This document shows, piece after piece, positions 8,916 through 58,459 of a stretch of DNA of 64,000 nucleotides. The position numbers and the translations under genes were made by a program. Position 1 is the first letter of the stretch. Every line of letters begins with the position of its first letter. The stretch is from positions 151,345-215,344 of the forward strand of contig WELA01001098.1 in NCBI GenBank assembly GCA_009602735.1. Direction: 5' to 3'. This stretch comes from Mesotaenium endlicherianum. Its lineage: Eukaryota. The notes beneath the pieces are model-generated. The model was given only the letters and a program-made list of their open reading frames with translations. It was not told the DNA's origin and did not search any database.

Positions 8916-8967
8916 ACGCTGAAGATTCTAATTGCGTGCAGGCAAAGAGAGATCTTTTTAGAAGTAA

Positions 8968-13367: not shown

Positions 13368-14090
13368 TGAATTGAATCGACTTACCAAATAGGCGATTAA
13401 TGATAAATGAAGATCTTTATATCAGCAAGTAATCTTTATGGTATTTTCTGTTGATGGTTTAAACAACAAAAGACAACACACTAGCAGTGGACAATACTTG
13501 CAAGTCAAATGGAAGTAAACTAGCATCAATGATGCAATCAGTAAACTTGTACATAAGGAAGGCTAGAAGACAGTGCATATCAATGGCTTCTCGCCTTGGA
13601 TTTAGATCCTCTTAGTAAGTTGTACAAGAGAGTTGGTCATGTTTCTGAATGCCGAAATCGAGAGCAATACCTAGCATATGTACATGGAATGAGTTTACTG
13701 TTCAACGGCCAGTGCGATGGCACCGCCTACCAGGGAGTTAACCATGTTGGTAGGACCTCAGTTAACCATAATCCACCGCCATCTCCCATCATCCTAAATC
13801 GTCATCCATCCTAAGGATGTCATCTTGCCATTCATCTAGCACACCACACTTAGATGCATATTTGGGCAATTCGCTGCTACCGAGTATGGAAGTCAGCTAG
13901 CTGGCTGTCAAAGAATGTGTCAGCAAGTTGACCTAAGTTGACTTCAGCGTGCTGCTCCCGGCTGAGTCATTAAACTAATTATTTAATAAGGTCCAGCAGA
14001 CTCCATATTAAATAAAGTTCAGCAGGCTGAACTTATTTAGCTATTTAATTTAAATGAATATTATATCTAGCAATATACTGGTTCATTACA
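13368..14090 (-). repeat. B1 3' LTR
   Basis: Plus-strand TGAATTGAATCG...TTCATTACA, followed by the reverse-complemented PPT TCCCTCCAACTT. Confidence 0.92.
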
Positions 14091-14203: not shown

Positions 14204-15946
14204 CTAACTGTGGGGATTACTAGTAACAGTGTGCTGTCCCTCCGCCCTCAGCCTACTGCCCTTATGAAGGAGATCTTCCTGGGGCTCTACGGTCATGGGA
14301 GCGAGACCGGGAGCCAGACCTCCTCCTCTGTCTTGGGGTCTCCTGAAGCCTGGGGGCTTCGAGTAGGGGGAACCAAGGGGAGAACGCAGTAACTGGGATG
14401 TTTCCTCCTGCACACTCTCAAAATGAAGGGAGGCAGCCTTCTCCAGGGCATTCCTCAAACTGACAGGTACATATACCGACATCTCAGAAGGATGTTGCAT
14501 GACATGAGCCAAGGGCACATGTCCTCTCTGCAAGGGAGATGCTGGCAGGCCTCTGGCTATTTCTATAGCAGTCCTATTTCTCCTGTCTGCCCTGTCTGAG
14601 TGGGTCTCTGCGCCTGCAGATGGGCTCTGTCCTCTGGCAATTTCCAGCCAAGTGATATCTTCCTCTCAACGAGCTGGTGCAGAGCTATGTCTGCCCTGGC
14701 CAACCCAGTCTTTTTCATTACAAGGGATGTGGCAGGTGTCTGGGTCACAGCGGGGCTAGTGTCCTCTTCCTCGCCTTCCTCCTCTTCTTCCTCTTACTCC
14801 TCCTCTTCTTCCCCTCGCTCCTCTGAGACTGCTGGGGTCTCCTCTGTCAGCTGCTCCAACTCTTCCCGAGAAAAAGAATACCCCACTGACCTTCCCCTTT
14901 TGGGTGCTGGTGGGGGCTGTTGAGTCCGGACCACATACAGGTCTTTCTCTCCCTGCTTGCTTGCCCATTTGGCATAAGCGTGCTTCCCTTTAGAGAATGA
15001 CTCTTGGGCCCTGCTCCTGTCCTCCTGCATTAGAGAATGACTCATGCAGTCTCTTACTCCATCCAATCTTGGGTCCCAAGCTGCAATGTGAGGGGGCAAC
15101 ACTATGTTCCCCTGTAGGTCTGTTAGGAAATCTTCCTCCCCTGCCCTGTCATTTTGCTGGTCCCTCATGTTAATGGTCATCCATCGTTAATCGGTGGGCT
15201 TTTGGAAGAAGGCAGGGTCCGTCCTTTTCAGCGTACAAGGGTACCAATGCCCTGCGAAGTCCAGCTGACTGGTTTCCCTGGCCAAGAATTTCCAGCTCTT
15301 TCTCTCCACCTCATTATACATGGCCTTAAACCTGTTATGGGATGTAGTGTCCTTAAAGCTGTCCGCGTCCATGGGGATCATCCTGATGACCCTATCTTTC
15401 CCCCAAATACTCGGAATCGATACAGCTCCTTCCTCATTCACTTGGGCCATTGCCTTGGCCTCTCTGATATCGTGGTAGAGGAGGAGTCCTGTGCTGACCT
15501 CTATGTACTTGTCAAAGTTTTCAGATGTCTCCCCTTCCCTCTCCAGGATGTCCTTCTGCGACTCACTGCGACTTCTCTGGGCATACTTGAAGGCCTCCTC
15601 CAGTAGATCAAAGCCCTTGCCCAGCACTGTGTAGCGGTAGCTGCTGATTATCCTCTGTACTTCTTCTTCAACCTGCTGCTTCCGCCTCTCCTCAGCTTGC
15701 CTCTCCTCCTCTGCCTTCTTGGCCTCCTCTGCAGCTTGTCTGTCCAATTCTTCCTGCCTCAGCCTGGCCTGTTCCTCCTCCTTCTTCTTCTTCTGTGCCT
15801 CCCGCTGTTGTTAGAGTCGTTGCGATTCCCGAGCGGAGATGGAGGATGATTTGATGTCGCCACAAAATTGCAAGTATTTTGCATGTGCCTCTTCCACTCT
15901 TCTCTTCCTCTTAAGTTCCAACTTCTAAGTCATCTTGCTCAATCAT
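14204..15946 (-). pseudogene. B1 extra 3' ORF (unknown function), broken by stops; homolog of 23235-24920
   Basis: Shared blocks YRYTV, SFKDT, YNEVERxSW, HWxPC, PTD*RWMT, LPPxIAxWDPRL, FSKGKHA, GRSVxYS and GHVPLAxV. Confidence 0.85.
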
Positions 15947-16259
15947 AAACACAATGCAGTCAGTGAAGTCTTGGTACTTCGCCGCTACTGAGTACCCTTG
16001 GTGGAGAAGAACGTAGTAGGGAGAGTTCCAAGTGTGTAAGACCTTGTGTGAGTGAGTAGAAGAGGAGAATTGAGTCAGAGAGAAAAAGTGAGTGTGAGCG
16101 CAGGTTGAGTGTGTAGAATGATTACATAAAAATTTGCCTGGCTGATCCCGAGACGGAACACACTCCCTCCAACTAAATTTTAAGGTGAGTTGCCTGTCAT
16201 AACTGTCACTATCTGTCACTAACTGTCACGTTTAACTGTCACGTTCCCCTCCAACTTAT

Positions 16260-16820
16260 CACCTGTCCAGGGCGACTAAAATGACAGTTAGGGAGGTGTG
16301 CCAGCCGCCCGAAGGTGGAACTGCTTCAACGCCCCTTTGGCATTGGTCAGCTGGTCTTTAAATTCCCAAGTGTCCCCAGAGGCATCGTACCTCTTCCATT
16401 GGACCAGGTACTCCATGACATGTTTAATGATCGACGGATAAAGCGAGCGTTCGAAATTTTGTCGACCTCATATTCCTCAGGGTCACCATGCCCGACAGCG
16501 GGGATCGGTCCCGGTTGGACAGGTAACCGACTCGTGAACAGTGTGTCACCTTTGATGTACGATTCCAGGAAGGAGACATTAAATTCTGGGTGACCCTTGT
16601 ATTCTGCTGACATGTTCAGTTTGTAAGCATTCTGACCGACACGGCGCACCACCAAAAATGGACCGACCCAGACCGGACCAAGCTTTTTCTTGACCACCCC
16701 AGGCAGGTACCGGTGTTGAGAATGCAGTTTGACCAAATCGCCCTTAGAAAATGTCAGCTCTCGACGGTGCTGATTAGCGTATTTTTGTTGATTTTCTTGG
16801 GCTTTGCGCAGGTTCTGTTG
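16260..16820 (-). pseudogene. pol: B1 integrase C-terminus (GPY/F) + chromodomain remnant
   Basis: [10 protein letters not shown]...AYKL...FNVSFL...EEYEVDKI. Confidence 0.88.
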
Positions 16821-16825
16821 ACTTT

Positions 16826-17545
16826 TGTAATGAATCAGTATATTAGTAGATATAATGTTCAGTTAAATAAAATAGTTAATTCAGTTCAGCCTGCTGAACA
16901 CTAGTTAATAATCAGTCTGCTGGACTTATTATTTAATATCAGTTTAATGACTCAGCCGGAAGCAGCACGCTGAAGTCCACTTAAGTCAGCTTGCTGACAC
17001 ATTCTTTGACAGCCAGCTGACTTCCGTACTCGGTAGCAGCGAACTGCCTGGATATGCATCTAAGTACGATATGCTAGATGAATGGCCAGATGACATCCCT
17101 ATGGTGGATGGCTATTCGGGATGATGGGAGATGGCGGTGAATTTGGTTAACCGAGGTCCTAGCAACGTGGTTAACTCCCGGGTAGGCGGTGCCATCGCAC
17201 TGACCGTTGAACAGTAAACTCATTCCATGTACATATGCTAGGCACTGCTCTCGAGTTCGGCATTCGGAAACGAGGCCAACTCTCTTGTACAGCTTACTGA
17301 GAGAGATCTGAATCCAAGGCGAGAAGCCATTCATACGCACTGTCTTCTAACCTTGCTTATGTATGAGTTTACTGATTTGCATTATTGATGCTAGTTTACT
17401 CGCATTTGACTTACGAGTATTATTCACTGCTAGTGTGTTGTCCTTTGCCGTGTAACCAGTTAATGAAAATACCATAAAGATTACTTGTTGATATGAAGAT
17501 CTTTATTAATTGTTAATCGCCTATTTGGTAAGACGATTCATTTCA
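16826..17545 (+). repeat. B2 5' LTR (720 bp)
   Basis: TGTAATGAATC...GATTCATTTCA; near-identical to 25034-25753. Confidence 0.97.
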
Positions 17546-17546
17546 G

Positions 17547-17558
17547 TGGTATCGGAGC
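17547..17558 (+). promoter_or_regulatory. Primer binding site, tRNA-iMet type
   Basis: TGGTATCGGAGC 1 nt after the LTR (canonical plant form TGGTATCAGAGC). Confidence 0.9.
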
Positions 17559-17579
17559 AGTTATCACAGTCTTCTTTGT

Positions 17580-19098
17580 ATGGTAAGGACAATGTCTCAA
17601 ACTAGCAACTCCCGAGACATGGAGAACCAGGATAACGAGAATGTCAAAAACCAGGCGGAAAGCCATGTAGCGGGAACCCGTACCTCATCTGAAGCAGTAG
17701 CAAATACTGCAGCTAGAGAGGCTGCAGATGAGGCAGCTGCTATTGCCGCAGTCGCAGCACAGCAAGCTGAGGAGGAGAGAGCCAGATCAGAAGCTGAACA
17801 AGTAGCAAAGGCCGTTGAAGATACAGAAAGGAGGGAAGGACAGCCAGCTGACGAGCGCACTGCTGAAGAACTTATGGCTTCAAGGGCCAATGTTCAGAAC
17901 CCACCTCCTGCTGTACAACTCAATGTACCCCTAGGTCAAATACGTGACCGGCTGAATGCGGCAGGAATTGCTGCTGCAGGAGCAAGAGGGATTGTTGAGG
18001 ACACTACTCAGCGAGTAGAGGCCAATGCTGCTGCTGCGTTTGCTAATCTACCACCCCAAAGTGTAGACTTGGGAGCATTGTTCGTTCAGATTCAGTCGCA
18101 AATGGCGACCATGTATCAGTCCCAGCAGGAGGACAAAAGAATCATAATGTCCCTACTGCGGGACAGAGACCAACTGGGGTCTCAAACCACTAGTGGTGGT
18201 GGCCGAGGGCCTAGTAAGCCCAAGCCGAAACCTCCCCAGGACTATGATCCTGAGGGAAACAGAAAATATTACCTGATCAAGTTTCTCGCGGATGTTGAGC
18301 AGTGGCTGGAGAACTACCCAGAACTGCAAGATCACGACAAGGTCAGGCACACCGGTGCGCTACTGAAAGGCAGTGCCGCAGACTGGTGGCTATACTGGAA
18401 AGGAGAGCGTAAAGCTCGGCAACTCGGTGACCCTACGTGGGTAGAGTTTGTGGAGAAACTGCATGAGAAGTTTGATGTCATCAACCAGCAGGAGAAAGCT
18501 ATCTATGCGATGATCTCCCTGACACTGAAGCAGACCACTTCAATTGCTGAGTTTGCTCAAAAGTTCCAAGAGAACATGATGAAGCAGTCAGATTTGCCAG
18601 AACGGTATAGGATAGCATACTTCAGGTATGGCTTGAAATCCGAGGTCTCTGGTCATTTTGCTGAGAAAAAGTATGAGAAACTGGCTGACTTGATCCAGGA
18701 TGCTGACGCCTGGGATCAGCAGCAGTTCAATCACAAGCGCCAGAGTAACGCTTTGGTGTCTAAGATTGTCAAAAAGCCCCACGGTTCCTACAATGCAGTT
18801 GAAGGAGACCAGGCTGAGGATAATCAGGGTGATGAATATGAGTATGAGTACAATGCTATTCAGTCTAGNTGATGAATATGAGTAGGAGTATAATGCCATA
18901 CAGTCTAGAGGTAGAGGTGGTTTCTCTCGGGGCGGCTATGGAAGAGGTGGTGGTAGGACTAAGCCAAGACCAGCCTCAGCAAAATCCACTTGCTACCATT
19001 GCCAGCAGTTGGGCCACTACCAAGAACAGTGTCCAGTCAAGCACCTTCCGAAAGACGAGAGAAAAGACCAGCCTTTAAAAGACAGCAACAGTCAGTAA
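17580..19098 (+). CDS. gag: B2 Gag (open once the N plus 39-bp duplication at 18869 is removed)
   Basis: MVRT start, [19 protein letters not shown], and C-terminal knuckle [14 protein letters not shown]. 1519-40=1479 nt, divisible by 3. Confidence 0.88.
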
Positions 19099-22000
19099 TC
19101 CAGTCTACTGACTGTGAGGATGCTAGAGATAGTGAGTCGTCACTAGCTGCCCTCGTAGTAGGTATTATGGGTCCTGCTGAACTGGATTCACTATGCATGC
19201 CTGACAACCAGATAAAGGAGACCATCAGCAATATAGACGTTCAGAGAGTGCACACTCTGGATGCTCTTGTTCCGCCTGATGTCCAACATTTCTTTGCTAA
19301 GTCGGGAGAACAATGCGAAAGTCAGGAAAAGTCAGTCCCCCCTATCCTACTGCATTGCATGATTGCAGGTAGGAAGGTGAGAGCATTTGTTGACGGAGGG
19401 GCGTCACATACTTTTATCCACAAGGACTTAGTTAAGCGGCTAAGGCTGCCTACTGTCACCCAAGGGAATAGAAAAATATTCCTTGGAGATGCCTCAAGTA
19501 TCCCGGGAGGAGTTATAACCAAGCCTATTGAGGTCCAGTTAGGTTCTGGCATTGCAGTTCTAACTGAAACGCTTACATTTGAGGTACTCAACACTGGCTT
19601 TTATGATCTCGTGCTAGACAGGTCCCGGCTTAATAGACATCAAGCTGAAGTGTGTTGGAGCAGAGGTACAGTTAAAGTGAGAGGAGCCAGTGATGGGCAG
19701 ACTGATTTGGCACCCACCAGTGCTCTTCCTCTTGTCCTGTGTGGATGGCAAATGAAGGAAAAGAAGAGGCTTCCAGAAGGATGCAAGTTGCTGAATGCAA
19801 TGGAGTTCGTCAAAGGCTGGAACCAGAAGGAAGACCGAATGTTCTGTCTGCTGCTAAGAGAGGTACCTCCTCAACCTGAAGAAGTGGTTGAGAAAAAGGT
19901 AAGCCCTCCGGATCACCCTACTGCTGCAAAAATTGTTGCTCAGTACACTGATATATTTAATATGCCTCCAGGACTACCCCCTAAGAGGGAAGTAGATCAT
20001 AAGATTGATTTATTACCTGGTAGTCAGCCACCTTGGCATCGCACGTATGGCTTGTCGTATGTGGAGAGCGAGGAGTTGAAAACACAGATTGCAGAGCTAG
20101 AGGAAAATGGTTATATTTCTCCCAGTAAATCACCTTACGGCGCACCCATCCTATTTGTTAAGAAAAAGGATGGCAGTATGCGGATGTGTGTGGATTACAG
20201 AGCCCTGAACAGAATTACAGTAAAGAACAAGTATGCTTTACCCAGGATCGCGGACTTGCTTGATACCCTGTCTGGTGCTAAGGTGTTCAGTAAAATAGAT
20301 CTCAAGAGTGGTTATCATCAAATCAGGATTGCTGAGGGGGATGAACACAAGACTGCCTTCCGCACACGTTATGGACACTATGAGTTCAACGTGATGCCTT
20401 TTGGACTGACTAATGCTCCTGCTACCTTCATGGGTGCTATGAATGACATTTTCAGACCTTATTTGGATAAGTTTGTGCAAGTTTTCCTGGATGATATTTT
20501 AATTTTCTCTAAAGATGAAGCTCAGCACACCGAACACTTAAAGACAGTCATGGACACTCTGCAGAAAAATCACTTATATGCTAAAATGAGCAAGTGTGAT
20601 TTCTTTAAGGAAAGTATTGAATTCCTAGGCCACGTTGTCAGTAAAGAGGGCATCAGTGTGGATCCTAAGAAAGTCCAGACCATAAGGGACTGGCCAGTAC
20701 CACAGTTTGTCTCTGAAGTTAGATCCTTCCTCGGGTTGGCTAACTACTATAGGAGATTTATTGAGAATTATTCCACAAAGGCCAGTAAACTGACTGACCT
20801 TACTAAGAAAGACATAGGGTATGTGTGGGGGGAAGAGCAGCAGGCTGCCTTCCAGACCCTTAAAGATGCTCTTTGTTCTGCCCCAGTGCTAGCCGTGAAT
20901 GACCCTAGCAAATCGGTGCAGGTGGTTACTGATGCCTCTGACTTTGCCATGGGTGCTATTTTGTTGCAGCCTGCTGACAAAACCACAAAGGATGGTAAGG
21001 TACGGCAGGAGTGGCATCCTGTGTTGTATGAGTCTATGAAATTTAATCCAGCGGAGATTAATTTCTCAGTGCATGATAAAGAGCTGCTAGCTATCATTCA
21101 TGTACTCAAACAGTGGAGAGCATACTTACATGGTAAAGCTTTTAAGGTGATTACAGATCATCTAGCTCTGACCCACTTTCAGAAGAAGTCCCAGCTGTCG
21201 AGGAGGGAGAACCGCTGGAGCCAGATGCTGGAGCAGTTCCAAGTCCAGATCGACTACAAACCAGGGAAGTTGAATCCTGCTGATGCACTCTCTAGAAGAC
21301 CTGACTTGCAAGAAAGGAACTTTAAACAGCATGCTGTAGATAAAGTCTTGTGTGCACTCACTTCACTAAAGGTGAAAAAGTCCTTCCTTGAACAACTTAG
21401 GAAAGCCTACCTTTCTGACCCAACATTTGAGCCCAGCCCCACTACTGGTGTGTGTCGTGCTACCGCACTCGGGTATAAGCTTAAGGGAGGGGTCTGGGTG
21501 ACTGAAACCACTTCAGGCAGGCTGAAGCTGGTCATTCCTAATAACTTGGAAATAAGGTCTCTCTTACTGAGTAAAGCGCATGACAGTTTCCTGGGTGGAC
21601 ATTTGGGGCAGACCAAAACTGTTGGCAAACTGGCAAAACATTATCATTGGGAGGGGTTACCCCGGGAAGTCTTGAAATATGTCAAGTCCTGTGACCAGTG
21701 TCAGAGAAATAAGTCTCGGCACACACCACCCGGAGGTCTCTTGCAACCGCTACCCATCCCAGCGGGATGCTGGGAAACTATATCCATGGACTGGGTGGTC
21801 TCACTACCAAGAACTGCCAATGGGCATGATTCAATACTGGTAGTCGTGGATAAACTGACAAAAATGGTCATTTTTATCCCCACAACTGTCAAGGTGACTG
21901 CACTCGAAACAGCGAGGCAGTTCTACAAGCATTTAGTATGCCAACATGGGCTCCCTTCTAATATCATCTCAGACAGAGACTCAAAATTCACCTCTAAGTT

Positions 22001-22904
22001 CTGGAAAGCTTTAATGGGGTTAATGGGAGTCACACAGCTGCTCAGCACAGCAAACCACCCTCAGACTGATGGGCAGACTGAAAGAACTAACCGAGTTCTG
22101 CAGGAGGTGCTGAGAGCATATATTAACCAAAAACAAGATAATTGGGATGACCTGTTGCCTCAAATTCAGTTTGCGGTCAACAGTGCGGTGCACGCGTCAA
22201 CGGGCAAGACTCCTTTTGAACTCAGCCTGGGTACAGTCCCTAGGTCTCCTCTAGATGTGCTGGGGGAGTCTTTAGCTCACCCTGAAGGGATTGACAACCC
22301 GGTCTCCCTCCAGTTAACTCAGGAGTTTGCTGACACCCTGTCAGAAGTCCAACAAAACCTGCACAAAGCCCAAGCAAACCAACAAAAATACGCTAATCAA
22401 CACCGTCGGGAGCTTACATTTTCAAGAGGCGATTTAGTCAAACTGCATTCTCAGCACCTGTACCTCCCTGGTGTGGCCAAGAAAAAGCTTGGCCCTGTCT
22501 GGGTCGGTCCATATTCGGTGGTGCGTCGTGTCGGTCAGAATGCTTACAAATTGAACATGTCAGCCGAATACAAGGGTCACCAGGTCTTTAATGTCTCCTT
22601 CCTGGAACCATACATCAAGGGTGATACACTGTTCACAGGTCGGTTACCTGTTCAACCGGGACCGGTCCCCGCTGTCAGGGACGGCGACTCTGACGAATAT
22701 GAGGTTGAGGAGATTTTAGACGCGCGCTCGGTCCGTCGATCGTCTAAATATGTCATGAAATACCTCATTCGATGGAAGGGTTACGATGCCTCTGGGGACA
22801 CTTGGGATTTTAAGGGCCATTTGACCAATGCCAAAGGGGCGTTGAAACGGTTCCACCTTCGGGCCGCTGGAGCCACAGTCATTTCAGTTGACACGGGAAG
22901 GTGA
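18990..22904 (+). CDS. pol: B2 Pol: protease, RT, RNase H, integrase, chromodomain (probably via -1 frameshift)
   Basis: FVDGGAS, FLDD, TDASD, HHCC, SMDW/SDRD/QTER, GPY and EYEVEEILD...[15 protein letters not shown]; 1304 aa open. Confidence 0.97.
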
Positions 22905-23234
22905 CAAGCGGTCCTGTCTCCATTTAAGTTGGAGGGGAAAACATATGACAGTTAGTGAGTGAGAGCGATAAAGGGACAGTTACGTGAATCCTCAGTGTCA
23001 GCATAGTGACAGAGGGGACAGCCTGGCCCACATAAAGCACCTTAAGCGGAAGGAAGGAACTTAACTCACCCTCAAACACATTCATATGTTTATGTTTAGC
23101 GCACTGCAATTACGTCAACTTTCAGCAATCACCTTGTAAGGTAAACAGGATCGAATCCACTATACTAATACTAACATACTTCCTGCAATCCCTATGACAA
23201 AGGTCCATATCCTACTAACTCGTGCCCTGGTTAC

Positions 23235-24920
23235 ATGTACAGGATGGCTCCCACCACACAAAAGGAGGACAGAAAGCGCAAGGCAGAAGAAGCCAGGAGG
23301 ACAATGGAGCAATACCAGAAGGAGCTGGCGGCGACGTCCCTCACTAGGAGAGAACAAGAAAGGGTCCGCAGACAACAAGAGGCGGCAGAAGAAGCACAGA
23401 GGAAGAAGGATCAGGAAGCGGAAAACCTCAGGAAAGCTTTGGAGGCGAGACGGAAGAAACAACAAGAAGAAGCGGCAGCGGCAGAGGAGGAGAAAAGGAA
23501 AAAGATTGAAGCGGAGAAACAGAAGAGCTTGGCCACTTACAGGTATACTGTGGTGGGTGGCCAAAACTTTGATAACCTTAAGGAAGCATTGCTGGCAGCC
23601 CAGGAGATCAACAAGCGGGAACAGACAACACTGCTACAGAGGGAAGGAGCTGCAGCACTGGATAGGTACATCGAGACACACACTGGTGTGGTCCTTTACG
23701 AAGATTATGCTAAGATGGTGGGCAATACGGCAGAGCAGGCCCGGTACCTTGCAGATGATTCAGAAGACAAGCCGGTCACCATACCAGGAATAGTGGGAGA
23801 TCAGAGACTCATCCGGATGGTGAGCATGCGGCCCAATAGCTTTAAGGATACGGTATTCTACCTCACACTACTGCCAGCTTACAATGAAGTGGAAAGAAGG
23901 AGCTGGGAGTACTTGGCTAGGGAAGCAGGACAGCAGATGTTCTCTCCCCACTGGTTCCCGTGTAAACTGAGGAAGGCTGAGCACGGACCCCAGTACTACC
24001 AGCAGCCAACAGACTGGAGGTGGATGACCTTCACCAATAAGAAGCAGGAGTGTGATCGAGCCCAACCGGATGATTTCCACTATGGCCTAGACGGCTATCT
24101 CATCCTACCACCTTACATTGCCCCTTGGGATCCCAGGCTGAATGGATGCTTGAGCAATATGAATGCAGAGACCAAGGAGCATAGGAGGAGGGGAAGAGAC
24201 TACTTCTCTAAGGGAAAGCATGCCTTTGTCAAATGGGCAAAGAATGCAGGCCGGATAGATATCAGCAGGCTGAAAGCCAAGCAACCTCCAGCGCGCCCTA
24301 AGAAAGGGAGGTCGGTAGACTACTCCATGTCTACTAGGGAGCAGGACGACTTAGTGGACGAGACCCCTACTCTCTCCGAGGAGGAGGATGAGGAGGATGA
24401 GGAAGAAGAGCAAGGCAGAGGAGAAGCATCAGCAGCTGGTACTCAGGATACCCAGGGGCAGGCAGGGGCACGTTCTAAAGAACCACGAACAGGTGTTTGG
24501 AATGTAATCCCCGTTATGGAGGCAACTGGACCCCGCGCTCGCTCCCCCAGCCCACCTGCCCAAGCAGGGGAAGAAGCTGATCTGACTGTACTGGGCAGCA
24601 GACACAGGCAGAAATCCCCAGAGGACAGGGGTGCCAGAAGAGGGACACGCGGGTGGGCCAGAGGTATGCCAGCCTCCCCCTCCGCTCAGGGGCATGTACC
24701 TCTAGCCAATGTATTTCAGCATCCTACTGGAATGCCTGTCTATGTGGGAATCAACACCCAAGTGGTTGAAGAGCAGGCCACCATCCTCCGTTCTCCTCGA
24801 GGTCCAACTTTAGAGCAAACAGGGTTCTTTAGAAGGCCAGCTGACAGACCTAGAGGGCTGTCCAGATCCGGGTCCAGATCTCCGTCTCCTGATCCTGAAG
24901 CCCCAGGAACAACCCCTTAA
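23235..24920 (+). CDS. B2 extra sense ORF (561 aa, unknown function)
   Basis: Long open ORF between pol and PPT: charged coiled-coil-like N-terminus, aromatic-rich core, acidic and Arg/Ser/Pro-rich tail. Conserved at protein level in B1. Confidence 0.88.
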   Translation: MYRMAPTTQKEDRKRKAEEARRTMEQYQKELAATSLTRREQERVRRQQEAAEEAQRKKDQEAENLRKALEARRKKQQEEAAAAEEEKRKKIEAEKQKSLATYRYTVVGGQNFDNLKEALLAAQEINKREQTTLLQREGAAALDRYIETHTGVVLYEDYAKMVGNTAEQARYLADDSEDKPVTIPGIVGDQRLIRMVSMRPNSFKDTVFYLTLLPAYNEVERRSWEYLAREAGQQMFSPHWFPCKLRKAEHGPQYYQQPTDWRWMTFTNKKQECDRAQPDDFHYGLDGYLILPPYIAPWDPRLNGCLSNMNAETKEHRRRGRDYFSKGKHAFVKWAKNAGRIDISRLKAKQPPARPKKGRSVDYSMSTREQDDLVDETPTLSEEEDEEDEEEEQGRGEASAAGTQDTQGQAGARSKEPRTGVWNVIPVMEATGPRARSPSPPAQAGEEADLTVLGSRHRQKSPEDRGARRGTRGWARGMPASPSAQGHVPLANVFQHPTGMPVYVGINTQVVEEQATILRSPRGPTLEQTGFFRRPADRPRGLSRSGSRSPSPDPEAPGTTP

Positions 24921-25033
24921 GGTGACAGGCTGAAGAGGCTGTCAGTAAGGGAGGCTGGTCAGGTTCAATCACTTTAGTTAAAGCTTTGCAGTTTAATGTT
25001 GTCGAGGCGACAACAAGTTAAGTTGGAGGGATT

Positions 25034-25753
25034 TGCAATGAATCAGTATATTAGTAGATATAATGTTCAGTTAAATATGATAGTCAATTCAGTTCAGCCT
25101 GCTGAACACTAGTTAATAATCAGTCTGCTGGACTTATTATTTAATATCAGTTTAATGACTCAGCCGGAAGCAGCAGGCTGAAGTCCACTTAAGTCAGCTT
25201 GCTGACACATTCTTTGACAGCCAGCTGACTTCCGTACTCAGTAGCAGCGAACTGCCTGGATATGCATCTAAGTACGATATGCTAGATGAATGGCCAGATG
25301 ACATCCCTATGGTGGATGGCTATTCGGGATGATGGAAGATGGCGGTGAATTTGGTTAACCGAGGTCCTACCAACATGGTTAACTCCCGGGTAGGCGGTGC
25401 CATCGCACTGACCGTTGAACAGTAAACTCATTCCATGTACATATGCTAGGCATTGCTCTCAAGTTCGGCATTCAGAAACGAGGCCAACTCTCTTGTACAG
25501 CTTACTGAGAGAGATCTGAATCCAAGGCGAGAAGCCATTCATACGCACTGTCTTCTAACCTTGCTTATGTATGAGTTTACTGATTTGCATTATTGATGCT
25601 AGTTTACTCGCATTTGACTTACAAGTATTATTCACTGCTAGTGTGTTGTCCTTTGCCGTGTAACCAGTTAACGGAAATACCATAAAGATTACTTGCTGAT
25701 ATAAAGATCTTTATTAATTGTTAATCGCCTATTTGGTAAGACGATTCATTTCA
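25034..25753 (+). repeat. B2 3' LTR (720 bp), preceded by PPT AAGTTGGAGGGA
   Basis: Direct repeat of 16826-17545. Confidence 0.97.
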
Positions 25754-25758
25754 ACTTT

Positions 25759-28700
25759 TGACAGGTTGTCAGCAAACTCCTGAGTTAACTGGAGCAGCAA
25801 ACTTCTGGGAAATTGTAGGGAGACCGAATTGTCAATCCCTTCAAGGTGAGTTAAAGACTCCCCTAGGACATCTAAAGGAGACTTAGGGACTCTACCTAGG
25901 CTCAATTCAAAAGGAGTCTTGCCCGTTGACGCGTGCACCGCACTGTTGATCGCAAACTGGATTTGAGGCAACAGGTCATCCCAATTATCTTGTTTTTGGT
26001 TAATATATGCTCTCAGCACCTCTTGCAGAACTTGGTTAGTTCTTTTAGTCTTCCCATCAGTCTGAGGGTGATTTTCTGTGCTGAGCAGGTGTTTGACTCC
26101 CATTAACCCCATTAAAGCTCTCCAGAACTTAGAGGTAATTTTGAGTCTTTGTCTGAGATGATATTAGAAGGGAGCCCATGTTGGCATACTACATGGTTGT
26201 AGAACTGTCGCTGTTTTGAGTGCAATTACTTTGACAGTTGTGGGGATGAAAACGACCATTTTTGTTAATTTATCCACTACTACCAGGATCGAATCATGCC
26301 CATTGGCAGTTCTTAGTAGTGTTACCACCCAATCTATGGATATTGTTTCCCAGCGTCCAGCTGGTATGGGCAGTGGTTGTAAAAGACCCCCGGGTGGTGT
26401 GTGCCTAGACTTATTTCTCTGACACTGATCACAAGACTTCACATACTTCAAGACCTCTCGAGGCAATCCATCCCAATGATAATGTTTTGCCAGTATGCCA
26501 ACAGTTTTGGCCTGCCCCAAATGCCCACCCTGTGAACTGTCATGTGCTTGACTCAGTAAGAGGGACCTTATTTCCAAATTATTAGGAATGACCAGCTTTA
26601 GCCTGCCTGAAGTGATTTCAGTCACCCAAACCCCTCCCTTAAGCCTATACCCGAGTGCAGTAGCAGGACACACACCATCAGTGGGGCTGGGCTCAAATGT
26701 TGGGTCAGAAAGGTAGGCTTTCCTAAGTTGTTCAAGGAAGGACTTTTTCACCTTTAGTGAAGTGAGTGCACACAGGACTTTATCTACGGCATGCTGACTA
26801 AAGTTCCTTTCTTGCAAGTCAGGTCTTCTAGAGAGTGCATCAGCAGGATTTAACTTCCCTGGTTTGTAGTCAATCTGGACGTGGAACTGCTCCAGCATCT
26901 GGCTCCAGCGGTTCTCCCTCCGCGACAGCTTGGACTTCTTCTAAAAGTGAGTCAGAGCTAGATGATCTGTAATCACCTTAAAAGCTTTACCATGTAAGTA
27001 TGCTCTCCATCGGTTGAGCACATGAATGATAGCAAGCAGCTCTTTATCATGCACAGAAGAATTAATTTCAGCTGAGTTGAATTTCATAGACTCATACAGC
27101 ACAAGGTGCCACTCCTGCCGTACCTTACCATCCTTTGTGGTTTTGTCAGCAGGCTGCAACAAAATAGCACCCATGGCAAAGTCAGAAGCATCAGTAACCA
27201 CCTGCACAGGTTTGCTGGGGTCATACACGGCTAGCACTCGGGCAGAAAAAAGAGCATCTTTAAGGGTCTGGAAGGCAGCCTGCTGCTCTTCCCCCCACAC
27301 ATACCCTATGTCTTTCTTAGTAAGGTCAGTCAATTTACTGGCCTTTGTAGAATAATTTTCAATGAATCTTCTATAGTAGTTACCAACCCAAGGAAGGGTC
27401 TAACTTCAGAGACAGACTGTGGTACAGGCCAATCCCTTATAATCTGGACTTTCTTAGGATCCACACTGATGCCTTCTTCATTGACAACGTGGCCTAAAAA
27501 TTCAATACTTTCCTTGAAGAAATCACACTTGCTCATTTTAGCATATGACTGATTTCTTCTCAGAGTGTCCATGACTGTCCTTAAGTGTTCAACATGCTGA
27601 GCTTCATCTTTAGAGAAAATTAAAATATCATCCAGGAAGACTTGCACAAACTTATTCAAGAAAGGTCTTAAAATGTCATTCAAACCACCCATGAAGGTTG
27701 TAGGAGCATTAGTCAGTCCAAATGGCATCACGTTAAACTCATGGTGTCCATAACGTGTGCGGAAGGCAGTCTTATGCTCATCTCCCTCAGAAAATCTGAT
27801 TTGATAATAACCACTCTTGAGATCTATCTTACTGAACACTTTAGCACGGGACAGGGTATCAAGCAAGTCCTCGATTTTGGGTAAAGCATACTTGTTCTTT
27901 ACTGTAATTCTGTTAAGAGCTCTGTAATCAACACACATCCGCATACTCCCATCCTTTTTTTTAACGAACAGGATGGGTGCGCCATAAGGTGATTTACTGG
28001 GGGAAATATAACCATTTTCCTCAAACTCTGCGATCTGTGTTTTCAACTCTTCGCTCTCCACATAAGACAAGCCATAAGTGCGTTGCCAGGGTGGCTGACT
28101 CCCACGTAATAAATCAATCCTATGATCTACTTCCCTCTTAGGGGGTAGTCCTGGAGGCATATTAAAAACATCATTGTATAAGCAACGATTTTTGCAGCAG
28201 TAGGGTGCTCCGGAGGGCTTACCTTTTTCTCAACCACTTCTTCAGGGGAGGAGATACCTCTCTTAGCAGCAGACAGAACATTCTGTCTTCCTTCAGATCC
28301 CAGCTTTTGATGAACTCCATTGCATTCACCAATCTGCATCCTCCTGGAAGCCTCTTCTTTTCCTTCATTTGCCTTCCATAGAGGACAAGAGGAAGAGCAC
28401 TGGTGGGTGCCAAGTTAGTCTGCCCATCACTGGCTCCTCTCACTTTAACTGTACCTCTGCTCCAACACACTTCAGCTTGATGTCTATTAAGCCAGGACCT
28501 GCCTAGCACGAGATCATAAAAGCCAGCGTTGAGTACCTCAAATGTAAGCGTTTCAGTTTGAACTTCAATGCCAGAACCTAATCGGACCTCAATGGGCTTG
28601 GTTATAATTCTTCCCGGGATACTTGAGGCATCTCCAAGGAATATTTTCTATTCTCTTGGGTGACAGTAGGCAGCTTTAGCCGCTTAACTAAGTCCTTACG

Positions 28701-30520
28701 GATGAAAGTATGTGACGCCCCTCCGTCAACAAATGCTCTCACCTTCCTACCTGCAATCATGCAATGCAGTAGGATAGGGGGGACTGACTGTTGCTGACTT
28801 TGGCATTGTTCTCCTGATTTAGCAAAGAAATGTTGAATATCAAGTGGAATAAGATCATCCACAGTGTGCACTCTCTGGAGGTTTATATTGCTGATGGTCT
28901 CCTTTATCTCTTTGTTGGGCATGCATAGTGAATCCAGTTCAGCAGGACCCTTAATACCTGCTACGAGGGCAGCTAGTGACGACTCACTATCTCTAGCATC
29001 CTCACAGTCAGTAGACTGGATTAGTGACTCTTGCTGTCTTTTTAAGGCTGGTCTTTTCTCTCGACCTTTGGGAGGTGCTTGACTGGACACTGCTCTCTGT
29101 AGTGGCCCAACTGCTGGCAATGGAAGCAAACGGATTTTGCTGAGGCTGGTCTCGGCTTAGTCCTACCACCACCTCTTCCATAGCCACCTCAAGAGTAACC
29201 ACCTCTTCCCCTAGACTGTATAGCATTGTACTCATACTCATATTCATCACCCTGATTATCCTCAGCCTGGTCTCCTTCAACTGCATTGTAGGAACCGTGG
29301 GGCTTTTTGACAATCTTAGACACCAAAGCGTTACTCTGGCGCTTGTGATTGAACTTCTGTTGATCCCAGGCATCAGCGTCCTAGATCAAGTCCGCCAGTT
29401 TCTTACACTTCTTTTTAGGAAAATGACCAGAGACTTCGGATTTCAAGCCATACCTGAAGTATGCCATCCTATACCGCTCTGGCAAGTCTGGCTGCTTCAT
29501 CATGTTCTCCAGGAACTTTTGAGCAAACTCAGCAACTGAAGTGGTCTGCTTCAGTGTCAAGGAGATTATTGCATAGGTAGCTTTCTCCTGCTGATTGATG
29601 ACATCAAACTTCTCATGCAGTTTCTCAACAAACTCTACCCAAGTAGGGTCACCGAGTTGCTGAGCCTTACGCTCTTCTTTCCAATACAGCCACCAGTCTG
29701 CTGCACTGCCTTTTAGTAGAGCACCAGTGTGCCTGACCTTCTCGTAATCTTGCAGCTCTGGGTAGTTCTCCGNCGTAATCTTGCAGCTCTGGGTAGTTCT
29801 CCGACCACTGCTCAACATCAGCGAGAAACTTGATCAGGTAATATTTTTTGTTTCCCTCAGGATCATAGTCACGGGGAGGTTTTGGCTTACGCTTACTAGG
29901 CCCTCTGCCACCACCAGCAGTGGTTTGAGAACCCAGGTGGTCTCTGTCCCGCAGCAGAGACATTATGATTCTTTTGTCCTCCTGTTGGGACTGATACATG
30001 CTCGCCAATTGAGATTGCATTTGCACAAATAACGCTCCCAAATCCACACTCTGAGGTGGGAGTCTAGCAAATGCAGCAGTAGCAGTAGCAGTAGCATCCA
30101 CCCGCTGATCACTCTTGCTCCTGCAGCAGCAAAACCTGCCGCATGCAAGCGGTCACGAATTTGACCTAGAGGCACATTGAGTTGTACAGCAGGAGGTGGG
30201 TTCAGAACATTAGCCCTTGCTGCCATAAGTTCTTCGACAGTGCGCTCGTCCGCTGGCTGTCCTTCCCTCCGTTCTGTATTTTCAGCAGCTTTTGCTAATC
30301 GTTTGGCTTCTAGTCTGACTCTTTCCTCCTTAGCCTACTGTGCTGCGACTGCACCAATAGCAGCTGCCTCATGTGCAGCCTCTCTAGTTGTAGTATCTGC
30401 CACTGCTTCAGAATAGGTATGGGTTCCCGCTACATGGCTTTTAGCTTGATTTTTGACATTCTCGTTATCCTGGTTCTCCATGTCTTGGGAGTTGCTAGTT
30501 TGAGACCTTGTCCTTACCAT
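25759..30520 (-). pseudogene. pol: B1 gag-pol, fragmented
   Basis: ORF fragments are nearly identical in sequence to B2 Gag/Pol (MVRTRSQ, FVDGGAS, FLDD, TDASD, AHDSSQGGH), with many stops and frameshifts. Confidence 0.93.
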
Positions 30521-30554
30521 ACAAAGAAGGCTGTGATAACAGCTCCGATACCAC

Positions 30555-30713
30555 TGAAATGAATCGACTTACCAAATAGGCGATTAACAGTTAATGAAGA
30601 TCTTTATATCAGCAAGTAATCTTTATGGTATTTTTTGTTGATGGTTTAAACAGCAAAAGACAACTCACTAGCAGTGGACGATACTCGCAAGTCAAATGGA
30701 AGTAAACTAGCAT
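30555..30713 (-). repeat. B1 5' LTR, PBS-proximal part (resumes at 32096-32195 after the insertion)
   Basis: GCTCCGATACCA (PBS reverse complement, 30542-30553), then TGAAATGAATCGACTTACC... Confidence 0.9.
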
Positions 30714-32095
30714 TGTCATGAATTATTGAGTCGAAGTCGTTGCACGTACCCGAGCTACAAGCGTGTGAGCGATCAACCTCGAACGGGCACTTGCCTCTTT
30801 GCATTTGTGTGATTTAGTTTATTAAGTTGCTATGCTTGCATGCCTAGGGGATAGATGCCACGTGACAAGTCAACACTTGTCACGTGCGCCGGACCTACTA
30901 GACGCACCAGAGGTACGGGCCGAATACCCGTCCAAAACTGGACGGTGGCATTTGACTTTGTAATCATAGCCACTACAGGCCGTAGGGACCCAAGCGACAG
31001 CCCAAAGCAAAGGCAACAAGGGTCGAGGGGGCCACGTGGAGCCACCGGAAGGTGGCGGGCTTTTGCGCTTGGCCCAGGCTCACCCGGCAGCCAGCCCGAG
31101 CACTTAATTGTGCTCGGCGCCAAGCGACGGGAGCCACCGAGGCCACGTGGCGCCACCGGAAGGTGGCGGGCACCTTCAAGTGGCCCAGGGGCACTTAAAT
31201 GCCCGTCACTCGGGCCCAGGCACTCCTAAGTGCCCGACACCCAAGTGGCGAGGCCACCAAGGGCACCCAGGGCCACCGACCGACAGCTGCAGCCCGTCGG
31301 TTGGCCCATACGCACCCGACCAAGATGTGCTCAGCCGACAGGAACCGTCACAGCCTGCAAGAGTGTCACAGCTTAGCGGGCAACCGTTCGATTGCACAAA
31401 CATAAGTGTGCAAGCTTGTCTTACAAGCTTAGTATGTGCTAAAGTGAGCTCGACCTATCACAAGCATTTAGCATATTCTAGCATCTCGCTTTTGATTGGA
31501 TTGAGTAGTAACTAGCCTATTGGAGCGCTAACACGATAGGTATATGTGTGTGTATGCAAAGGTAGATCTTAGATGAAGACTACATGCATTGAATCCGCGC
31601 CTAACCCGCCGGGTGTCCAAGAGTATAAGTACTAGAGATGTCCCTAGAAAGACATCTTTTTAGAAGTCCCCATTATGCCAGTTGCAAGTCACAGAGATTA
31701 TCAGTAAAGCTTACGCTTTTGTCTCTTGTGTTTTCAGGACCACTTAGTCTCTCTCTTGTGAAGAGCAAGCCTTACTGGCTTCCAGTCACTAGAAGAACTT
31801 CACAAGTGGTGAGCAAAGTCACAGCTTATACCCCTGCCATAGGACTACTCTTGAAGATCATGATGTGCTTCCAGTGATCTTTTGGGCCAGACTTCATTAG
31901 TTGTTTTCCTACCAGATTACAGTCTTGAGGTGCTCACTCTGGAGAGTACACACTCCTTGATTGAAACATCCAGCACTTGCCTCCCTTTTTGGCTATAAAG
32001 CCCCATGTATTGTAGACTTCATTGCAGCAAAGCCTGCTTGCTTATTATGCATTGCTTGTGTCGATAGTACGCACCCGACCTCCTAGCGCACGATA
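30714..32095 (+). mobile_element. Family A-related non-coding insertion (solo LTR or deletion derivative, ~1.38 kb)
   Basis: TGTCATG...CACGATA flanked by duplicated (A)GCAT. Both the 5' terminus and ~31465-31958 match the element A upstream region. Confidence 0.85.
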
Positions 32096-32190
32096 GCATC
32101 AATAATGCAATCAGTAAACTTGTACATAAGCAAGGCTAGAAGACAGTGCATATCAACGGCTTCGAGAGTTGGTCTTGTTTCCGAATGCTG

Positions 32191-32458
32191 AACTCTCTTG
32201 TACAGGTTACTGAGAGACATCTTAATCCAAGGCAAGAAGCCATTGATACACACTGTCTTCTAGCCTTGCTTATGTATGAGTTTACTGATTGCATTATTGA
32301 TGCTAGTTTACTTGCATTTGACTTGCGAGTATTGTCCACTGCTAGTGTGTTGTCTTTTGCTGTTTAATCAACTAACAAAAAATACCATAGAGATTACTTG
32401 CTGATATAAAGATCTTCATTAATTGCTATTCGCTTATTTGGTAAGTCAATTCATTTCA
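32191..32458 (+). repeat. 3' part of a plus-oriented family B LTR, fused to the B1 5' LTR
   Basis: Matches 17277-17545 and ends ATTCATTTCA. Confidence 0.88.
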
Positions 32459-32739
32459 CATATGTACATTATTCTAGAAAAAGGTGGCAAGTTTTGGGAT
32501 GTGTTAGGTGCCAACACATTAACATGCACCTTCCTAGAAATTACTTACGTAGCAAGTATATAAACACGAGGTAGAGCATAGAAAGGCATTCGAGAATCAC
32601 AATTGTACTTGCAGAAATATAATAACTTTCAAGAAGCCACCTCTCTTTCAAGAAGCTACCAGTTGTGTTCAAAGATCCTTGTCTTGAATAGACAAAGAAT
32701 TCTATTTTACTAAGTACTTTATCTATCTGTTTCACTTCA
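32459..32739 (+). repeat. Family C LTR, 3' half
   Basis: Matches ~10093-10381 and ends TTTCACTTCA. Confidence 0.88.
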
Positions 32740-33910
32740 CTTGCATGTAACTACTCTACAAGGATCAAGGCATGTGTTTCCAGTGTTTTTTTGGGCCATA
32801 CCTCATTAGTTGTTCTCTTACCAGTTTACAGTTGTAATGAATCAGTATGTTGGTAGATATAATAGTCATTTATATATAATAGTTAATTAAGTCTAGTCGG
32901 CTGAACATTAGTTAACATTCAGTCTGCTGGAGTTTTATTTCTAATGACTCAGCCGAGGGCAGCAGGCTGAAGTCAGCTTAGGTCAGCTCGCTGATATATT
33001 ATTTGACAGCTAGCTGACTTCCGTACTCGATAGCAGCGAACTGCCTAATCATGCATCTAAGTGTGATATGCTAGATGAATGGCAAGATGACATCCCTATG
33101 ATGGATGGCGATTCGGGATGATGGGAGATGGCGGTGGATTTGGTTAACCGAGGTCCTACCAACGTGATTAACTCCCGGGTAGGCGGTGCCATCGCACTGG
33201 CCGTTGAACAGTAAACTCATTCCATGTACATATGCTAGGCATTGCTCTCGAGTTCGCAATTCGAAAACGAGGCCAACTCTTTTGTACAGCTTACTGAGAG
33301 ATATCCGAATCCAGGGCGACAAGCCATTGATGCTAATTGTCTTCTAACCTCGCTTATGTATGAGTTTATCGATTGCATGATTGATTCTTGTTTACTTGCA
33401 TTTGATATATGAGTAATATGTACTGCTAATACGTTGTCCTTGCTGTTTACTAAGTTAACAAGAAATACCATAAAGATTGCTTGCTGATATAAAGATCTTT
33501 TATTAATTTTTAATCACCTATTGGTAAGTCGATTCATTTAACAATCTTGAAGTACTCTTTCTGAATTGTTCACACTTCTTACTTCTAAATGATCTCTCTT
33601 TGCCGATAAGCATTTAGAATCTTCAGCATATGCCTACTTGTAGTGGGCGCTCTTATCAGCCTTATTACAAAGGGGTTAGTGGAGAAGACTCAGATTAAGA
33701 TCTTAGCACTATCACAGCTCAGTAATCCGCCTGAGGAGCAGCACCCTGTGCCCCCTTAGCCTGCGATCATCCTCGAGCCACCACTTCAGAGGACTCATAT
33801 TGATCCCTTGTACTCCATGGCAGGTGACCAAGATACAAAGGTAGACAAGACTTTCCTTTTCCGCTTCAGCGGTAGGCCAGGCACCTGCGATCTTGACAAT
33901 ACAATAAGTT
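32740..33910 (+). pseudogene. Old relic of a family A 5' leader and gag start, interrupted by a B solo LTR
   Basis: From 33630 it reads MPTCSGRSYQPYYKGVSGEDSD*...FRFSGRPGTCDLDNTI, versus A gag MPTRSGRAYQPHYKGVSGEDSD...FRFSDRPGTCDLDDTI. Confidence 0.85.
32833..33540 (+). mobile_element. Family B solo LTR (older)
   Basis: TGTAATGAATC...GATTCATTTA; TSD ACAGT/ACAAT (1 mismatch). Confidence 0.9.
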
Positions 33911-34943: not shown

Positions 34944-35442
34944 TGTAGTGAAACAGATAGATAAAGTACTTAGTAAAACAGAATACTTTATCTATTCAAG
35001 ACAAGGATCTTTGAACACAAGTGGTAGCTTCTTGAAAGAGAGATGGCTTCTTGAAAGTTAATATATTTCTGGATTTTGGCAAGTACAAGAGTGATTCTCG
35101 AATGTCTTTCTATGTTCTAGCTCTTGTTTATAAACTTGCTACATAAGTAATTTCTAGAACAGTGTATGTTGATGTGTTGGCACCCAACACATCCCAAATC
35201 TTGCCACCTCTTTCTAGAATAATGTACACATGTCCTTTTGACCTAAAAATGGCACATTTGACTTTTGCCACATGGAGTTCTTCTAGGTCTTTCCTCTAAC
35301 TTCAAAAATGCCTTGGAAGGTTCAAAGGACATGAACCAAGTTACTAGAGTACCTATTCACACTTGACTCCACACAATACTACTCCACATATATTTGAAAA
35401 CATTAAAATATAAGCAAACATATAATAACTCAAATCACTACA
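34944..35442 (-). repeat. C 3' LTR (499 bp)
   Basis: TGTAGTG...CACTACA. Confidence 0.96.
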
Positions 35443-35477
35443 TCACCCCCCGATAGAAAAAGCGCCGTCTCGGCGCG

Positions 35478-35601
35478 TCAAGTCAGGTCTTACACATGTG
35501 GAGCAAACTAGTCAACAGTTTCAAGTCAGATGCCACACATGTGAAGAGGACTAGTCAAAGGCGCCAAGTCAGGTGCTACACATGTAAGGTAGACTAGGCA
35601 A
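35478..35601. repeat. Three ~43-bp tandem repeats in the C 3' UTR
   Basis: CAAGTCAG...ACACATGT...ACTAG(T/G)CAA x3. Confidence 0.8.

Positions 35602-58411: not shown

Positions 58412-58459
<48 letters not shown>

What the first reader, a model, noticed from the sequence alone, without database searches (positions are those of the whole stretch)
23235..24920. Unknown 561-aa accessory gene in the env position of a chromovirus
Seen: an intact sense ORF after the chromodomain. It has no signal peptide or TM stretch, so it is not Env-like. It has a charged helical N-terminus, a conserved W/Y/P-rich core (YNEVERRSW, HWFPC, PTDWRWMT, LPPYIAPWDPRL, FSKGKHA) and an acidic then RS/P-rich tail. Known: chromoviruses usually encode only gag-pol. 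Inference: a novel accessory factor, for example anti-silencing or RNA/chromatin binding.
Basis: partly seen in the sequence, partly recalled or inferred. Interest (0 to 1): 0.75.

Follow-up and report, generated by a model that had tools for sequence, protein, structure and literature searches.

The report
Swappable spliced extra gene in chromovirus
A young retrotransposon, likely from a green alga, carries after its standard genes an intact extra gene that is conserved at the protein level and has no detected relative outside its own family; it is likely spliced, likely exchanged between sub-families as a cassette, and is predicted (untested) to encode a nuclear helper that keeps the element active against host silencing.

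Summary
A complete 8.9-kb chromovirus (LTRs 97.6% identical, 5-bp TSD) has an open 561-codon sense frame between the chromodomain and the 3' PPT, with no membrane or signal segment. It is a real gene: a sister element in the same window has a homolog in the same place (41% aa identity, synonymous sites saturated, dN 0.47), and the 40 of 205 differences shown for close copies in public runs are 25 synonymous to 15 non-synonymous (pN/pS 0.17). New points: a contig end matches removal of a GT-AG intron 23141-23242, so the start is probably ATG 23244 (558 aa); the gene lies between two copies of the PPT motif; and it is far more diverged between sisters than gag/pol (dS 0.24-0.33), which points to cassette exchange. 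No homolog was found in 1.84 billion representatives, Pfam, PHROGs, NCBIfam or PDB; the fold models failed. Sense extra ORFs after pol are a known kind, also in Tekay chromoviruses (18%), so this is a new protein family in a known slot. Best guess: a separately transcribed nuclear transactivator/anti-silencing factor (0.4).

The parts
16821..16825 (+). Left target-site duplication ACTTT of element A (right copy 25754-25758)
16826..17545 (+). 5' LTR of element A, 720 nt, TG...CA; 17 differences from the 3' LTR
17547..17558 (+). Primer-binding site of the TGGTATC type (tRNA-Met assignment recalled, not tested)
   Evidence: sequence
17580..19096 (+). gag (Ty3 capsid, Retrotrans_gag; CCHC knuckle after the N at 18869). 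The N sits between two copies of a 40-nt stretch, likely an assembly gap. The gag end overlaps pol in the -1 frame at a TTTAAAA heptamer (frameshift inferred); end coordinate approximate
   Evidence: (X1 contig skips 40 nt here)
18963..22904 (+). pol: protease, RT, RNase H, integrase, Tf2-type SH3, chromodomain
22927..22940 (+). Internal copy of the PPT motif directly after the pol stop; also present (twice) in element B
   Evidence: 5 of the 6 AGTTGGAGGG matches in the window are internal or 3' PPT sites of A and B
22941..23140 (+). Putative internal promoter and first non-coding exon: 2 TGACAG motifs (5 in element B), pyrimidine/CA-rich leader, short upstream ORFs of 5, 15 and 17 codons
   Evidence: promoter activity inferred
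23141..23242 (+). Likely 102-nt GT-AG intron in the leader of the extra gene (CTAAC at 23215-23219)
   Evidence: table 7: one X4 contig end before 23241 matches 23109-23138 at 23 of 30 letters without gaps (compared by eye); boundaries
23235..24920 (+). Extra ORF (ORF3), 561 aa from the first ATG, 558 aa from ATG 23244
23256..23546 (+). Charged long helix, aa 8-104, with basic clusters RKRK, RRKK, KRKK
23532..24359 (+). Conserved core aa 100-375 (44-49% identical to element B), fold unknown
24360..24434 (+). Acidic tract aa 376-400, also present in element B
24663..24749 (+). Second conserved motif in the tail, aa 477-505 (RGxPASP...GHVPLAxVxQHP...VYV)
25021..25031 (+). 3' polypurine tract
25034..25753 (+). 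3' LTR of element A
14268..15909 (-). Broken homolog of ORF3 in sister element B (in-frame stops and frameshifts in the tail); B is the older element into whose integrase gene A inserted
16170..16260 (-). Element B: two internal PPT-like motifs around five TGACAG repeats, between pol and the ORF3 homolog
25754..30713 (-). Element B gag-pol and part of its 5' LTR, 89% identical to A over 5020 nt; pol continues at 16825-16300; 3' LTR 14091-13368

Best explanation
The ORF is a conserved extra gene of this chromovirus family that is likely transcribed from its own internal promoter, likely spliced in its leader, likely exchanged between sub-families as a cassette, and predicted to encode a nuclear regulator that would switch on or protect the element's transcription against host silencing. 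Shown: intact frame, position, purifying selection, no membrane segment, several divergent versions within one organism. Inferred with fair support: splicing of intron 23141-23242 and start at ATG 23244; exchange of the pol-to-PPT cassette by template switching between co-packaged RNAs at the conserved flanks. Inferred with weak support: the long charged helix acts as spacer or oligomeriser, the basic clusters as nuclear signal, the aromatic core as nucleic-acid or chromatin-binding domain and the acidic tract as activation surface, in the manner of foamy-virus Tas or caulimovirus P6/TAV, which are also made from a second promoter downstream of pol.
For: Coding constraint: A versus B, 379 codons, pS 0.78 (saturated), dN 0.47, core dN 0.38; 40 shown of 205 differences in four runs: 25 S, 15 N, pN/pS 0.17, p 5e-8; the 21 that vary among other copies are 17 S, 4 N. 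Splicing: one X4 contig end fits the exact GT-AG junction, another X4 contig begins at 23242, and all four runs read TGCAG at the acceptor. Cassette exchange: gag dS 0.33 and pol dS 0.24 against saturation in ORF3; DNA identity falls from 0.81-0.90 to about 0.5-0.7 between about 22870 and 24990 and returns at the PPT; B-type ends (29 of 30 and 25 of 27 letters, by eye) and further types appear in X1, X4, X6. Long residence in the element: GC3 0.55 and CpG o/e 0.38 like gag/pol (0.48-0.49; 0.42-0.48), unlike host exons (GC3 0.75-0.98). Nuclear/regulatory hints: RKRK and PK[KR]GR clusters and the acidic tract are kept in both A and B. Silencing pressure: CpG depletion and three antisense GT-AG junctions over integrase/ORF3 in X12, X4 and X6. 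Architectural precedent: PMC5902531 passages.
Against: No domain, homolog or fold supports any biochemical function. In three raw-read RNA runs (6-24% of each read) the first 1 kb of ORF3 has depth 0 to about 2 and no read joint at the proposed intron; only X12 covers the 3' third, with a loose end at 24666 that suggests another locus. The splice evidence is one contig end in a run of unrecorded kind, from a diverged copy, and could be an intron-less DNA copy. No transcription start was seen, so splicing from the LTR transcript is not excluded. Basic clusters lie in a generally charged helix and are weak evidence. A chromovirus of another family in the same window (34944-41618) with near-identical LTRs has no such ORF (longest frame 73 codons in its 3' spacer), so the gene is not needed by chromoviruses in this host in general. 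The 40 differences were chosen by the tool as best supported.
Confidence: 0.4

Rival explanations
1. The protein is a cytoplasmic scaffold or RNA chaperone that gathers Gag and genomic RNA into assembly bodies (the viroplasm side of caulimovirus P6), not a nuclear regulator.
For: A 97-residue helix plus a disordered P/R/G tail suit self-assembly; aromatic and basic core.
Against: Conserved basic clusters and acidic tract; a structural partner of Gag would be expected to travel with gag, yet the gene is exchanged independently of gag.
Confidence: 0.2
2. The protein is a Rev/SR-like factor that controls splicing or export of the element's own RNA, keeping the genomic RNA unspliced.
For: The element has a likely sense intron that the window copy and X1/X2 copies retain; RSPSP motifs and an arginine-rich tail.
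Against: Only two RSPSP motifs, no RS-repeat domain or RRM.
Confidence: 0.15
3. The cassette is a passenger with its own fitness effect (captured cellular or mobile-element gene, or a gene once inside a longer ancestral LTR whose start is marked by the internal PPT motif), kept because it benefits carrier cells or the zygote rather than the replication cycle.
For: PPT motif followed by TG-starting repeats directly after pol in both A and B; TGACAG resembles BELL/KNOX sites (PMC13470011, PMC4889651 passages); gene genealogy differs from gag/pol.
Against: No cellular homolog among 1.84 billion representatives; composition is that of the element, not of host genes. The host genome itself could not be searched.
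Confidence: 0.15
4. It is an Env-like or movement protein for cell-to-cell spread.
For: Position and size match env; splicing is also reported for env-like ORFs (PMC7264820).
Against: No hydrophobic segment (maximum 0.73), no signal-like N-terminus, no N-glycosylation sequon; no Pfam or viral-fold match.
Confidence: 0.04
5. It is a chance open frame or a neutrally decaying relic.
For: The copy in element B is broken; differences private to the window copy are 11 N to 8 S; little RNA coverage.
Against: 0 of 500 simulations reach this length; strong synonymous excess among other copies; breakage after insertion also affects B's gag and pol.
Confidence: 0.02

Closest known systems
Sense extra ORFs between pol and the 3' LTR of plant LTR retrotransposons (eORF-3'F / aORF-3S), including Tekay chromoviruses
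   Same: Same position and orientation, over 250 codons, no conserved domain; 18% of 782 Tekay elements carry one (PMC6317226 Additional file 5).
   Different: RT-RNase H of A falls outside the seed-plant clade, in an unresolved group with Closterium and unnamed chromodomain elements (quick tree); the same table lists no extra ORFs for Chlamyvir (44) or Tcn1 (1500). No sequence relative was found. Leader intron, doubled PPT motif and cassette exchange were not seen in the passages read.
Foamy-virus Tas/Bet and caulimovirus P6/TAV
   Same: Accessory gene downstream of pol made from a second, internal promoter (PMC5902531 passages; PMC13220597 abstract start); P6 is a transactivator and suppresses antiviral defences.
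   Different: No sequence or profile similarity; internal promoter and function are only inferred here; host element is a Ty3 chromovirus, not a virus with an infectious phase.
VANC anti-silencing proteins of VANDAL DNA transposons
   Same: TE-encoded accessory proteins against silencing (passages of PMC11728184 and bioRxiv 10.64898/2026.05.21.726589); a short tandem motif lies beside the gene here.
   Different: Class I element; no similarity detected; the TGACAG repeats are shared by different ORF3 types rather than type-specific.
Env and env-like genes (errantiviruses, Athila, SIRE)
   Same: Position, size, likely spliced expression.
   Different: No transmembrane segment, signal peptide or glycosylation sequon.
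Retrotransposon-borne methyltransferases (KnitGypsy-Dnmt3, DAM-chromoviruses)
   Same: Algal Gypsy elements with extra epigenetic cargo (PMC5890265, bioRxiv 10.64898/2026.05.21.726589).
   Different: Those are recognisable enzyme domains, mostly within pol; ORF3 has no methyltransferase match.

Membership tests
Chromovirus (Ty3/Gypsy) | gag then PR-RT-RH-INT order between LTRs with TSD, PBS and PPT | tested here: met
Chromovirus (Ty3/Gypsy) | Chromodomain at the integrase C-terminus | tested here: met
   PF00385 E 5.8e-7, above cut-off, residues 1178-1230
Tekay clade | RT groups with seed-plant chromoviruses | tested here: not met
   Quick tree, 47 of 122 candidate rows (full-length, hand-picked by label): the 12 seed-plant rows form a clade (SH-aLRT 100) without A; their Tekay identity was not verified
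Chlamyvir or Tcn1 clade | RT groups with named reference elements; Tcn1 mostly self-priming | tested here: inconclusive
   No named references were in the tree; A has a tRNA-type PBS, unlike 83% of Tcn1
eORF-3'F / aORF-3S | Separate sense ORF of at least 250 codons between pol and 3' LTR | tested here: met
eORF-3'F / aORF-3S | Present in many copies and conserved | tested here: met
   2 of 2 family members in the window whose 3' region is present; all 30 bins covered in 4 of 4 runs laid, which were chosen as holders; synonymous excess
Env / env-like | Signal peptide and transmembrane segment | tested here: not met
   Hydropathy scan only
Env / env-like | Spliced subgenomic mRNA | tested here: inconclusive
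   One contig junction; none in raw reads; donor is local, not in the 5' leader
Caulimovirus P6/TAV or foamy-virus Tas/Bet | Sequence or profile similarity | tested here: not met
   No Pfam or PDB match
Caulimovirus P6/TAV or foamy-virus Tas/Bet | Own internal promoter and transactivation | not testable with these tools
   No transcription start seen in the runs laid
VANC anti-silencing proteins | Sequence-specific DNA binding that removes methylation from the element | not testable with these tools
   No similarity detected; no methylome at hand

The most novel reading that the evidence does not exclude
A simple retrotransposon has become a complex one: it carries an exchangeable, separately transcribed and spliced regulatory gene of a new fold, held in several ancient versions on near-identical gag-pol backbones, switched on in the zygote by host KNOX/BELL factors through its TGACAG array, and acting as a counter-silencing factor in an arms race with the algal host.
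Probability: 0.12. Interest if true: 0.85.

Novelty: new variant of a known kind. Interest (0 to 1): 0.5.

Why it matters
Thousands of extra ORFs are known in plant LTR retrotransposons and, by the reviews read, their roles are undetermined. This one comes with handles for testing: a young complete element, proof of protein-level selection, a likely spliced transcript of its own, and natural versions on almost the same backbone. If it counters silencing it would be a rare retrotransposon-encoded anti-silencing protein of a new family in an algal relative of land plants; if the cassette exchange holds genome-wide it shows accessory-gene shuffling of the kind known from complex retroviruses in a chromovirus.

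Tried and rejected
Homolog searches, all blank: word-seeded search with aa 95-385 (0 of 3594 candidates) and with the A+B alignment (0 of 3575); hmmsearch of 1.84 billion representatives with a 3-row profile (0 at E 0.001); viral contigs (0 of 7 pattern hits); metagenome contigs (0 of 74); Pfam (one E 0.13 hit on the charged helix), PHROGs (0), NCBIfam (0 for A; only E over 0.04 for B pieces); PDB sequences (best E 1.1); ESM Atlas (no usable hit; best 0.86, below the lead threshold). Folding: single sequence pLDDT 43, core alignment pLDDT 37.5; Foldseek on the poor model gave 0 matches at E 0.001 in viral and PDB libraries, which says nothing about the fold; the wide structural search was not obtained. 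No RNA holder on record was listed. LPPY as an adenine-methyltransferase motif was rejected: B has LPPH and Pfam is silent. The overlapping 199-codon frame 23194-23793 has no counterpart evidence and was set aside. Contig depths were not used as copy number or expression. No genome is held, so copy number, solo occurrence of ORF3 and host species were not determined; 'GC-rich streptophyte-like alga' rests on my recalled reading of the SNF2 exons, their GC3 and the Closterium neighbours. Literature searches; none listed a description of this protein, but subscription papers, Repbase-type libraries and the large supplements of PMC6317226 (files 1 and 3) were not readable.

Full report
Observation. 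The window holds a complete chromovirus, element A, at 16826-25753: two 720-nt LTRs with 17 differences, the target-site duplication ACTTT, a PBS, gag, and a pol with protease, RT, RNase H, integrase, SH3 and chromodomain. Between the pol stop (22904) and the 3' PPT (25021) lies an open sense frame of 561 codons, 23235-24920. None of 500 simulated spacers of the same composition came near this length (maximum 250). The protein has a long charged helix (aa 8-104), an aromatic core, an acidic tract (aa 376-400) and a P/R/G-rich tail; its most hydrophobic 19-mer scores 0.73 and it has no N-glycosylation sequon. It is not Env.

A second copy in the window. A is inserted in the integrase gene of an older sister, element B (minus strand; gag-pol 30520-25754 and 16825-16300, 3' LTR 14091-13368). 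B carries a broken homolog at 15909-14268, in the same place (41% identity over 409 columns, E 3e-98). The motifs YNEVERxSW, HWxPC, PTD, LPPxIAxWDPRL, FSKGKHA, QPP..PKxGRSV, the acidic tract and a tail motif at aa 477-505 are kept.

Selection. Between A and B, synonymous sites of ORF3 are saturated (pS 0.78) while dN is 0.47, and 0.38 in aa 201-375. Laid on aa 1-388, contigs of four public runs showed 205 differences, of which the tool listed 40: 25 synonymous and 15 non-synonymous against 258 and 906 sites (pN/pS 0.17, p 5e-8). The 19 that are private to the window copy are 11 N to 8 S, as expected of decay after insertion; the 21 that vary among other copies are 4 N to 17 S. The frame is therefore maintained as protein. 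Its GC3 (0.55) and CpG depletion (0.38) match gag and pol, not host exons (GC3 0.75-0.98): it is an old resident of the element.

Cassette exchange. gag and pol of A and B differ by dS 0.33 and 0.24 (89% identity), LTRs by 13%, but ORF3 is saturated. Identity drops just after the pol end and returns about 45 nt before the 3' LTR. Selection alone cannot saturate synonymous sites, so the cassette has an older genealogy than its backbone; template switching at the conserved flanks is the inferred route. Contig ends in X1 and X6 match the B type (29 of 30 and 25 of 27 letters, by eye), and ends in X1, X4 and X6 plus a 1165-nt X4 contig with 80 differences point to further types. The PPT motif is repeated directly after pol in A and twice in B; 5 of its 6 matches in the window are these sites and the two true PPTs. 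It is followed by TGACAG repeats (2 in A, 5 in 50 nt in B, the densest such cluster in the window; similar ends in X1 and X15). Whether the internal motif primes DNA synthesis or marks the start of an older, longer LTR is open.

Expression. One X4 contig leaves the window at 23241 with 58 letters whose last 30 match 23109-23138 at 23 positions without gaps (by eye). This equals removal of 23141-23242, which starts GT, ends AG and has CTAAC 24 nt before its end. A second X4 contig begins at 23242, and all four runs read G at 23239, giving the acceptor TGCAG. The first ATG, 23235, would then be intronic and the protein would start at 23244 (558 aa). Three other junctions, in X12 reads (8 reads) and in single X4 and X6 contigs, are GT-AG introns on the opposite strand over integrase and ORF3; they suggest that X4 and X6 hold RNA and that the family is also transcribed antisense. 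Against this: the kind of X4 is not on record, the evidence is one contig, and three raw-read RNA runs show almost no cover of the first 1 kb of ORF3 and no joint at this intron. X1 and X2 contigs, like the window copy, retain the intron.

Identity. No relative was found in any library. These searches rest on two sequences and on collections that evidently lack this host's copies, so they show isolation at present sensitivity only. Both structure predictions failed for the core and the fold searches are uninformative. The RT of A is 55-61% identical to its best full-length unnamed relatives and falls outside the seed-plant clade in a quick tree, loosely with Closterium elements and with the third chromovirus of the window (47 rows kept, careful search unfinished). 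That third element has no extra ORF.

Mechanism. Shown: a conserved, soluble protein encoded after pol. Likely: own spliced transcript, cassette exchange. Guess (0.4): a nuclear transactivator or anti-silencing factor, from conserved basic clusters and acidic tract, from the signs of silencing pressure (CpG loss, antisense RNA), from the keeping of several old versions, and from the layout shared with foamy-virus Tas and caulimovirus P6 (PMC5902531, passages; PMC13220597, listing and abstract start). Rivals are an assembly scaffold (0.2), an RNA-processing factor (0.15), a passenger gene (0.15), Env-like (0.04) and chance (0.02). TGACAG resembles the BELL/KNOX site (PMC13470011, passages), and such factors start the zygote programme in Chlamydomonas (PMC4889651, passages); zygote-specific expression is a lead only.

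Comparison with what is known. Sense extra ORFs after pol are an established kind with undetermined roles (PMC7264820, first third of the text; PMC9289625, passages). PMC6317226 (passages, section 9 and Additional file 5) finds them in 18% of Tekay chromoviruses and lists none for Chlamyvir or Tcn1; PMC11728184 (passages) describes 5' extra ORFs of Tekay; PMC2864245 (passages) labels an additional ORF of unknown function in its figure of fungal and spikemoss elements. Three unchecked earlier notes of this scan describe extra genes after pol in other genomes; none matched this protein by sequence. The slot is known; the protein family, the likely leader intron, the doubled PPT motif and the exchange of versions were not found in seven literature searches.

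Verdict. Real gene, new family, known position; new variant of a known kind. Interest 0.5.

Noticed in passing
window 1-9000 (minus strand; RT at 552-1646, C5 methylase at 1804-3021, protease in 4092-7013): A GC-rich retroelement with a C-5 cytosine methylase domain (PF00145, E 4.7e-11) upstream of RT; resembles the Gypsy-Dnmt3 elements described from Klebsormidium (PMC5890265 passages). Ends and DNMT class not examined.
   Followed up: partly
window 34944-41618 (minus strand): A third chromovirus of another family, with open gag and pol frames, LTRs 97.6% alike and no extra ORF in its 790-nt 3' spacer.
   Followed up: partly
window 22359-23540: Three antisense GT-AG junctions (22359-22647 in X12 reads; 22914-23315 in X4; 22359-23540 in X6), two sharing one acceptor: a spliced antisense transcript over integrase and ORF3.
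   Followed up: partly
window 9873-33539: Nest of at least four insertions of the same family (A in B in a third copy at 10480-13371, a solo LTR at 12403-13112, further LTR pieces at 32094-33539), i.e. repeated insertion into itself.
   Followed up: partly
window 18829-18910: A single N between two copies of a 40-nt stretch interrupts gag; an X1 contig skips 40 nt here, so the break is likely an assembly artefact.
   Followed up: yes
window 54903-64000: Host SNF2-family helicase gene with many introns, CA-repeat-rich introns and GC3 up to 0.98; the 731-codon frame at 54903-57098 may be its first exon.
   Followed up: no
window 51829-52227 and 53070-53468: A 100%-identical direct repeat of at least 300 nt spaced 1241 nt apart; not examined.
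   Followed up: no
window 30714-32093: A 1.4-kb insertion that splits the 5' LTR of element B; not identified.
   Followed up: no
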